Assembly (NCBI GenBank): GCA_964388035.1
Contig: CAYLZE010000035.1
Span: 1-44,663, forward strand
Direction of reading: 5' to 3'
From: an uncultured archaeon
GTDB lineage: Archaea > Asgardarchaeota > Lokiarchaeia > Sigyniarchaeales > SOKP01
DNA: 44,663 nucleotides
In this document: one piece after another, positions 34,284-35,444 of the stretch
How the letters are laid out: the number at the start of each line of letters is the position of its first letter
How positions within the stretch are numbered: position 1 is the first letter of the stretch
Notes under the pieces: model-generated
Databases searched by the model: none
What the model was told of the DNA's origin: nothing
The model's input: the letters and a program-made list of their open reading frames with translations, nothing else
Made by a program: the position numbers and the translations under genes

Positions 34284-34968
34284 TTACGTTTCAACGGTTT
34301 CAATAGATGGTTTTTCTAAATCAATAGTATAAATGGGGATTTCCTTTCTCTCTGTCGCATCATATAGGGGTAATCCCGATCTCTTTAGGTATTCGGGTTC
34401 CTTATATTTAAGAAGAACTACTTGACAATCACACGGGATTTTCATTTTTGCTACTCTTAGCCTGTCTCTAACGATCGGAAGGCTTTTTAAATACGTTCCT
34501 ATGTCCAATACCACCGATCCCGCCTTAACTCTCGCGCAAACCCCTGAAGGCCTTCCAAACGAGTTTCTCATTCCCGTTTGAACTCTGTCTGCACCTGCAA
34601 ATGCTAACATGCGGTTTTCTCGTATTTTTTGGAAGGGTTTTGAACGTATTCTTAATCGGAAATTTTGGTTTCCTAACTTTTTCTGAAGAATGCTGTTAAT
34701 GGTGACCCGTATTGCCTCTAATGCATTTGATGAGATTTGTACGTTCTTATTAACTTTTAGCCCAACTACTACTTCCCACTCTTCCCAAGGGATATCTTTA
34801 TTTCCTCCCCAGTATCTTGTAATCTTACTCTGAGTACCCCCTCTCGCATATTCACGCTTATGGTTTGCGCTCCTTTTGTGTTGATAGGGGCGTCTTGTCC
34901 ATCTCGCATATTGCCTCAAAAAGAGAGCAAAAATTTGCGTAGCAATGCCATGGACGGCGATGTGCCAT
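34284..34968 (-). CDS. rpl10e: 50S ribosomal protein uL16 (L10e), two exons join(34934..34968, 34284..34902); predicted 217 aa starting MAHRRPWHCYAKWTRRPY
   Basis: QISSNALEAIR, IRENRMLAFAGADRVQTGMRNSFGRP, AKMKIP; the RP..CY N-terminal motif is in a different frame from the body unless 31 nt are removed. Confidence 0.92.
34903..34933 (-). other. Candidate 31-nt bulge-helix-bulge intron in uL16 mRNA
   Basis: mRNA CUA-CGCA-AA^U-UUUUGCUCUC-UUUUU-GAGGCAAUA-UGCG-AG^A-UGG: 4-bp helix CGCA/UGCG, 3-nt bulges AAU and AGA; canonical cuts restore the frame. Confidence 0.8.
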
Positions 34969-35444
34969 ATTCAAGAAACCTCTTAATTTAGTGATAACTT
35001 ATATTATATAATTTATTTAAGATGTGCAGAAAAATAAGTTAAAATTAAAAAATTTTTCCATTTTAATGAATAATTTGAACCATAGCAATTAACAAATTGG
35101 TTTTATTTATTTATATATTCTCTATCATTTATATGATTTTCAAATTTAATTAACTCCTCAATTTTCTTAAAATTTCTTCTTTTCGTAGCATATTAATAAT
35201 AATCAGATATGGAAGCTTATTTCTTATCTGAATACCATTAGCCCATTAATTTCAATAAGAGAAAAATTGTGTAAAAGGTAATATTATAATAGGAATGAAA
35301 AGCTTCATTATGATAAATAATTGATTTTGATTATCTATCTTAATAAAATAATAGATAACATTATAATTTCTAAGAGGTTTCTTTTCTTAGAAGCCAATCG
35401 AATAATTCTTAAATAGTTATGTATAAAAGCTAATATTTATTACC

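What the first reader, a model, noticed from the sequence alone, without database searches (positions are those of the whole stretch)
34284..34968. Possible splicing-gated control of ribosome biogenesis, and more hidden BHB mRNA introns in this genome
The unspliced message encodes only a 36-aa peptide, so splicing would work as an on/off switch placed 35 nt after the start codon. Established: uL16 is loaded late in large-subunit maturation, and eukaryotic XBP1/HAC1 mRNAs use non-spliceosomal introns joined by tRNA ligases. Inference: uL16 output may be coupled to tRNA/rRNA-processing capacity or autoregulated, and other apparently N-truncated genes of this lineage may hide similar introns.
Basis: inference. 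Interest (0 to 1): 0.75.

Follow-up and report, generated by a model that had tools for sequence, protein, structure and literature searches.

The report
tRNA-type mini-intron in Asgard uL16 gene
The only gene found for ribosomal protein uL16 in this Loki-type Asgard archaeon is broken by a 31-base insert shaped like a tRNA intron, one of about 20 such inserts I found scattered over unrelated genes of this genome, so the cell very probably splices many mRNAs, but nothing points to a dedicated switch for ribosome building.

Summary
Observation confirmed. A 31-nt insert (34933-34903, minus strand), 35 nt after the ATG, breaks the single-copy uL16 gene. Unspliced it gives 36 aa; cut at the canonical bulge-helix-bulge (BHB) sites it gives 217 aa collinear with relatives. 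A separately assembled contig carries it unchanged. A two-subunit EndA and RtcB are present. The prediction of more hidden introns holds: comparison with relatives, blind to the motif, found 17 inserts of 30-39 nt in 1.5 Mb (lokiactin twice, E2, NadE, CdhA, thiolase and others), and a motif scan added 3. The regulatory reading is not supported. 112 family genomes, including the congener, have an uninterrupted uL16. One other genome has a different intron 11 nt away. Host genes share no function, and most of these introns also truncate the protein if unspliced. Best reading: recently gained, EndA-removable introns tolerated because they are spliced. No RNA run was listed, so splicing is inferred here. 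In the papers I could search, only cbf5 has such an intron in a coding sequence. This scan has already noted the same phenomenon in many other Asgard genomes, in some cases with RNA support that I did not check.

The parts
34934..34968 (-). uL16 exon 1 (35 nt; M1-A11 plus 2 nt of K12)
   Evidence: matches the family N-terminus MAH[RK]RPWxCY
34903..34933 (-). 31-nt BHB intron, phase 2, frame-shifting
   Evidence: spanned by contig in run X2
34284..34902 (-). uL16 exon 2 to the stop codon (spliced product 217 aa)
   Evidence: 76% identical to congener G001
34936..34939 (-). central helix, 5' strand (CGCA, exon)
34933..34935 (-). bulge 1 (AAU); predicted cut between 34934 and 34933
   Evidence: BHB rule (PMC2738675)
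34909..34932 (-). intron hairpin (h'); holds an in-frame TTG at 34919 used by the public gene call
34905..34908 (-). central helix, 3' strand (UGCG, intron)
34902..34904 (-). bulge 2 (AGA); predicted cut between 34903 and 34902
   Evidence: BHB rule
34899..34901 (-). outer helix h, 3' strand (UGG), pairing with CUA at 34940-34942
34858..34968 (-). 36-aa reading frame of the unspliced message
34978..34982 (-). Shine-Dalgarno-like GAGGT, 10-14 nt before the ATG
   Evidence: sequence; function inferred
35004..35011 (-). TATA-like TTATATAA, 36-43 nt before the ATG
   Evidence: sequence; function inferred

Best explanation
The insert is a real archaeal endonuclease-type intron in an mRNA. The transcript folds locally into a BHB; the (alpha-beta)2 splicing endonuclease EndA cuts after the second base of each bulge, and RtcB joins the exons, giving a normal 217-aa uL16. 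It is one of at least 17-20 similar 29-39-nt introns in unrelated genes of this genome. The three checked across relatives (uL16, lokiactin, nadE) are private to this lineage, gained after its split from the one congener held. They persist because a broad-specificity EndA removes them, much as proposed for Asgard tRNA introns, and are most likely spliced constitutively, with no uL16-specific control. Shown: insert, frame break, BHB geometry, enzymes present, other introns, lack of conservation. Inferred: cleavage and ligation in the cell, constitutive splicing, near-neutrality. Unknown: how the introns arrive.
For: Frame restoration and BHB. Motif-blind alignment of relatives' proteins to 1.50 Mb of G000: well-supported disruptive inserts cluster at 30-32 nt (one 39), whereas ordinary in-frame indels are mostly 9-21 nt without hairpins, and only 2 small frameshifts were seen. 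16 of 16 pass a relaxed BHB test against 0.67 expected from shuffled inserts (criterion set after seeing them). EndA has two paralogues; the catalytic one keeps the Tyr/His/Lys positions, carries the insert loop seen in the best PDB match 3p1z, and RtcB is present. uL16 is single-copy, with no other lesion and ordinary divergence. Relative G017 has 9 such inserts of its own at other sites in 1.13 Mb; congener G001 has none in 0.33 Mb. The lokiactin and nadE introns were not seen in about 20 and 12 relatives.
Against: No spliced read for this gene. Equilibrium folding gives the cleavable form a low weight (3-11% relaxed, under 3% strict, depending on the window), and a competing fold pairs into bulge 2; the other introns score similarly, 0.4-81%. 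An in-frame TTG inside the intron could give a 211-aa product without splicing. The two independent uL16 introns lie only 11 nt apart near the 5' end, and the set is mildly skewed to the first fifth of genes (7 of 17, p=0.04, post hoc).
Confidence: 0.72

Rival explanations
1. One reading: the intron is spliced and serves as a regulated switch that ties uL16 output to EndA/RtcB capacity or to free uL16.
For: The unspliced message is non-productive. A near-isoenergetic non-cleavable fold exists. An independent uL16 intron sits 11 nt away in G123. G017 has two inserts in what reads as uL11. A negative-regulator role was proposed, not shown, for cbf5 (PMC2738675).
Against: Absent from 112 family genomes and the congener. 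No enrichment in ribosomal-protein genes. Two uL16 introns in about 114 genes fit the measured densities (P=0.12-0.20). Truncation and weak folding are shared by the whole set.
Confidence: 0.12
2. No splicing is needed: translation starts at the TTG inside the insert (34919) and gives a 211-aa uL16 that lacks the first eight or nine residues.
For: The TTG is in frame and the insert's end re-creates Y-A-R before W. TTG and ATA starts occur in uL16 of relatives.
Against: It loses RRPWxCY, conserved across the family and aligned to RRPARCY in eukaryotes. Exon 1 is intact and has the SD-like site; the TTG has none and lies in the hairpin. It cannot explain internal inserts in nadE, E2, actin and others.
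Confidence: 0.06
3. The ribosome hops over the hairpin (translational bypass) from Tyr-Ala codons TAC GCA to the synonymous TAT GCG 31 nt downstream.
For: Such synonymous codons exist, and several deletion placements give the same protein.
Against: The similarity follows from the GC palindrome in the central helix. No stop or rare codon follows the take-off site. The whole set has exact 3-4-3 geometry with A-rich bulges, which a hop does not need.
Confidence: 0.03
4. Assembly artefact, or a dead gene.
For: Metagenome-assembled genome with 7% contamination; the insert was seen in no other species.
Against: A separately assembled contig is identical. It is the only copy found of an essential gene and otherwise intact. 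Many inserts of the same size and shape occur, with almost no ordinary frameshifts.
Confidence: 0.04

Closest known systems
cbf5 pre-mRNA intron of Desulfurococcales/Sulfolobales (Watanabe 2002; Yokobori 2009, PMC2738675)
   Same: Short BHB intron inside a conserved coding motif, cut sites after the second bulge base, host with a hetero-oligomeric EndA.
   Different: cbf5 is one gene with one ancient, conserved position and cDNA support. Here there are about 20 introns in unrelated genes, lineage-specific where checked, in another phylum, without RNA data.
BHB intron in the 5' UTR of Haloferax HVO_1309 (PMC7714728)
   Same: An mRNA that is an EndA substrate.
   Different: It lies outside the coding sequence and is a single case.
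Asgard tRNA introns (bioRxiv 10.64898/2026.10.13.758758)
   Same: Short, repeatedly and recently gained, sit at BHB-compatible sites, two-subunit EndA background, route of arrival unknown.
   Different: They are in tRNA genes (median 22-23 nt); that paper's text has no mention of mRNA (0 hits).
Eukaryotic HAC1/XBP1 unconventional splicing
   Same: Non-spliceosomal, frame-shifting short intron (XBP1) joined by a tRNA ligase.
   Different: Cut by stress-activated IRE1 at stem-loops, conserved position and proven regulation (own knowledge); none of these is shown here.

Membership tests
Archaeal EndA-type (BHB) intron | 4-bp central helix with two 3-nt bulges on opposite strands at the exon-intron junctions | tested here: met
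   CGCA/UGCG, bulges AAU and AGA; 0.4-0.7% in shuffles
Archaeal EndA-type (BHB) intron | Flanking helices h and h' (canonical hBHBh') | tested here: met
   h 3 bp; h' 6 of 7 pairs with one mismatch next to the bulge
Archaeal EndA-type (BHB) intron | Cuts after bulge base 2 restore the conserved product | tested here: met
   217 aa, CYAKW as in L034 and G123
Archaeal EndA-type (BHB) intron | Host encodes EndA and an RNA ligase | tested here: met
   two PF01974 genes, one PF01139 gene
Archaeal EndA-type (BHB) intron | BHB is the favoured fold of the precursor | tested here: inconclusive
   central helix 27-72% probable, fully cleavable form 0-11% by ViennaRNA
Archaeal EndA-type (BHB) intron | Spliced RNA or cleavage by EndA observed | not testable with these tools
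   no RNA holder listed
Regulatory (HAC1/XBP1-like) intron switch | Conserved intron position across relatives | tested here: not met
   absent in 112 family genomes; a different site in G123
Regulatory (HAC1/XBP1-like) intron switch | Condition-dependent splicing | not testable with these tools
   no expression data
Mobile element or homing intron | Copies elsewhere in the genome or an encoded endonuclease | tested here: not met
   no second copy within 7 mismatches; 27-45% similarity to the other introns; 31 nt holds no ORF
uL16/L10e ribosomal protein | Homology to solved uL16 chains | tested here: met
   congener orthologue (76% identical) hits eukaryotic uL16 at E about 1e-31

The most novel reading that the evidence does not exclude
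EndA/RtcB splicing is rate-limiting for this intron-laden transcriptome and has been co-opted as regulation. The 5'-end uL16 introns, gained independently 11 nt apart in two genera, would then let free uL16 or the load of tRNA/rRNA processing set uL16 output: a pre-spliceosomal, splicing-gated control in a close relative of eukaryotes.
Probability: 0.1. Interest if true: 0.88.

Novelty: new variant of a known kind. Interest (0 to 1): 0.64.

Why it matters
The papers I could search document endonuclease-type splicing of an archaeal coding sequence for one gene only (cbf5). If the reading here is right, a Loki-type Asgard archaeon must splice messages for core genes (uL16, lokiactin, a ubiquitin E2, NadE), and its relatives have gained different introns elsewhere. 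Intron gain in mRNA would then be ongoing in a lineage close to eukaryotes, without a spliceosome, which bears on how intron-rich genomes arise. In practice, gene callers truncate or split these genes (the public call here lacks the N-terminus), which affects Asgard annotation and marker-gene phylogenies.

Tried and rejected
No RNA holder listed; this is not evidence either way. Runs X1, X9 and X11 did not cover the site. Pattern scans for a uL16 N-terminus with 4-34 extra bases found nothing in GTDB or JGI metagenomes (own genome left out; the pattern matches 16 of the 38 uL16 loci held). Motif-first genome scans were not discriminating: 282,016 loose motifs, 510 and 2,699 candidates, and their control runs timed out, so only three candidates that restore textbook motifs were kept. 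Self-paralogue comparison only re-found three introns. N- and C-terminal calls were noisy; inserts of 9, 11, 16 and 77 nt at gene ends and antisense duplicates were discarded. An excess of in-frame stops in introns of 3n length was not significant (10 of 12 against 7.6, p=0.12). Five genomes without a uL16 match also lack the Pfam family; this is probably assembly gaps.

Full report
1. Observation. On the minus strand, the ATG at 34968 reads MAHRRPWHCYA and then runs out of frame to a stop after 36 aa; the body of uL16 lies in another frame. Removing 34933..34903 (31 nt) gives a 217-aa protein. Several neighbouring placements give nearly the same protein, but the one fixed by the BHB rule gives Lys12, as in the closest intronless relative L034 and in G123. 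The structure is a canonical hBHBh': CUA/UGG, CGCA/UGCG, bulges AAU and AGA, and an inner hairpin with 6 of 7 pairs. Shuffled inserts reach this class in 0.7% of trials within the ambiguity window. A Logan contig from salt-marsh run X2 spans the site with no difference; the assembler differs, but the sample may not be independent. One uL16 gene was found in the genome. The public gene call is the truncated 211-aa product from a TTG inside the intron.

2. Organism and machinery. The lokiactin of a same-family genome clusters with proteins labelled Promethearchaeota/Lokiarchaeota, and the order includes single-contig genomes of 4.4 and 6.0 Mb, which I take from memory to match the cultured Loki archaea. 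The genome has two EndA paralogues and one RtcB. The catalytic paralogue matches PDB 3p1z best (E 1e-35), keeps the Tyr, His and Lys positions and shares its insert loop; that 3p1z is the broad-specificity Aeropyrum enzyme is my own knowledge. ARAGORN calls many tRNA introns, most of 23-36 nt.

3. Conservation. Of 134 other genomes in the family, 118 have a match. 112 are uninterrupted from the start, including the only congener; five are partial (three at contig ends, one masked by N, G095 unchecked); and G123, another genus, has a different 30-nt insert with an in-frame stop and a relaxed BHB at nt 46 instead of nt 35. Other families of the order show no such break where the N-terminus could be read. 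The intron is therefore a recent, private gain. Two uL16 introns among about 114 genes fit the measured densities (P 0.12-0.20), although their closeness to each other is unexplained.

4. Other introns in this genome. I aligned proteins from 2.75 Mb of three relatives to the genome without using the motif, covering 1.50 Mb. Well-supported inserts that break the frame or carry a stop: C47- 27911 (30 nt, molybdopterin-binding/CinA-like), C63+ 5704 (30, LsrF-type aldolase), C199+ 1791 (31, CdhA-like), C35- 34933 (31, uL16), C10- 43644 (31, CCG-domain Fe-S protein), C38+ 34333 (30, ubiquitin E2), C65+ 26311 (30, thiolase), C32- 9854 (30, AMP-phosphorylase-like), C45+ 19136 (30, NadE), C5- 29417 (30, epimerase), C66+ 9415 (32), C1+ 39352 (30), C4+ 56313 (31, acyl-CoA dehydrogenase), C8- 91045 (39). 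In frame without a stop: C5+ 43890 (33, lokiactin) and C10+ 71610 (33, FAD-linked oxidase). A second lokiactin insert (31 nt, C5+ 43948) restores the C-terminal VIHRCF. Families come from Pfam or, for CdhA, AMP phosphorylase, NadE and LsrF, from my reading of the sequence. All 16 tested pass a relaxed BHB test against 0.67 expected (the test was set after seeing them). Ordinary in-frame indels are mostly 9-21 nt without hairpins, and only two small frameshifts occur. Motif scans add three that restore textbook motifs: a zinc alcohol dehydrogenase (C50+ 19070, 29 nt), an FGGY kinase (C149- 3790, 30) and a second acyl-CoA dehydrogenase (37). The density is about 11 per Mb of compared coding DNA, so a few tens genome-wide is plausible (inference). 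The introns are unrelated in sequence. In the reverse comparison G017 has 9 inserts of its own in 1.13 Mb, one in LsrF at another position, and G001 has none in 0.33 Mb. The lokiactin and nadE introns were not seen in the sampled relatives.

5. Mechanism. Most likely EndA cuts both bulges and RtcB ligates, as established for archaeal tRNA, rRNA and cbf5 introns (PMC2738675, PMC7714728). This step is inferred, because no RNA run was listed. Equilibrium folding gives the cleavable form only a few percent for uL16 and for most of the others; this weakens the structural argument a little but does not single out uL16. The pattern of many private introns of near-constant length, in conserved motifs of unrelated genes, parallels what bioRxiv 10.64898/2026.10.13.758758 reports for Asgard tRNA introns: repeated recent gains retained where the motif forms, with the route of arrival unknown.

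6. The regulatory claim. For it: the unspliced message is non-productive, a competing fold exists, a second uL16 intron lies nearby in another genus, and the set has a mild 5' skew (7 of 17 in the first fifth, p 0.04, post hoc). Against it: no conservation of position; about 18 genes of the main ribosomal-protein cluster are uninterrupted; one ribosomal-protein intron is unremarkable against 0.3 expected (assuming about 55 genes); and 14 of 16 introns also break the product if unspliced. Late loading of uL16 is documented for yeast (PMC10068337), not here. Dependence on EndA follows for any such intron; that it is used as control is unshown. I put a uL16-specific switch at about 0.1.

7. Novelty. 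In the searchable literature, only cbf5 carries such an intron in a coding sequence, with one further case in a 5' UTR; Yokobori 2009 notes that others were predicted but not confirmed. The library lacks most subscription papers. The scan's own notes report the same phenomenon in many other Asgard genomes, some with spliced RNA contigs; I did not check those. Verdict: a real intron with high probability, a new variant of a known kind, many more in this genome, regulation unsupported. Interest 0.64.

Noticed in passing
L162 (G123:C173), about 1306-1277 minus: Independent 30-nt BHB-like intron with an in-frame TAA in uL16 of another genus, 11 nt downstream of the position in this genome.
   Followed up: yes
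L176 (G000:C5:43890-43978, +): Lokiactin carries two inserts (33 and 31 nt) around a 25-nt micro-exon; not seen in about 20 relatives.
   Followed up: yes
L168 (G000:C38:34333, +): The ubiquitin-conjugating E2 gene has a 30-nt stop-carrying intron in the PPY motif.
   Followed up: partly
L134, L137, L085, L077, L141, L182 (G017): Nine inserts of 28-36 nt in G017, including two in what reads as uL11, two in an acetyl-CoA synthetase-like gene and one in LsrF at a different codon from G000.
   Followed up: partly
L008, L035 and L007, uL16 start: uL16 appears to start with ATA in two relatives and with TTG in a third.
   Followed up: no
L163 (G060:C75:23781-24056): A second, truncated uL16 copy (residues 1-92) beside a full-length one on another contig.
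   Followed up: no
G095:C211:40185-40535; G031:C51:6676-7176: uL16 matches that begin late (residue 91; residue 34); contig end or a further intron, not checked.
   Followed up: no
G000:C89:18588 minus; G000:C27:45152 plus: A 28-nt hairpin insert with a partial BHB that would join two coding segments, and a 21-nt stop-carrying insert relative to a paralogue; both unverified.
   Followed up: no
intron set: Central helices are 58% G+C against 40% for the host genes; nearly all introns start with A or T and have A as the second-last base.
   Followed up: partly
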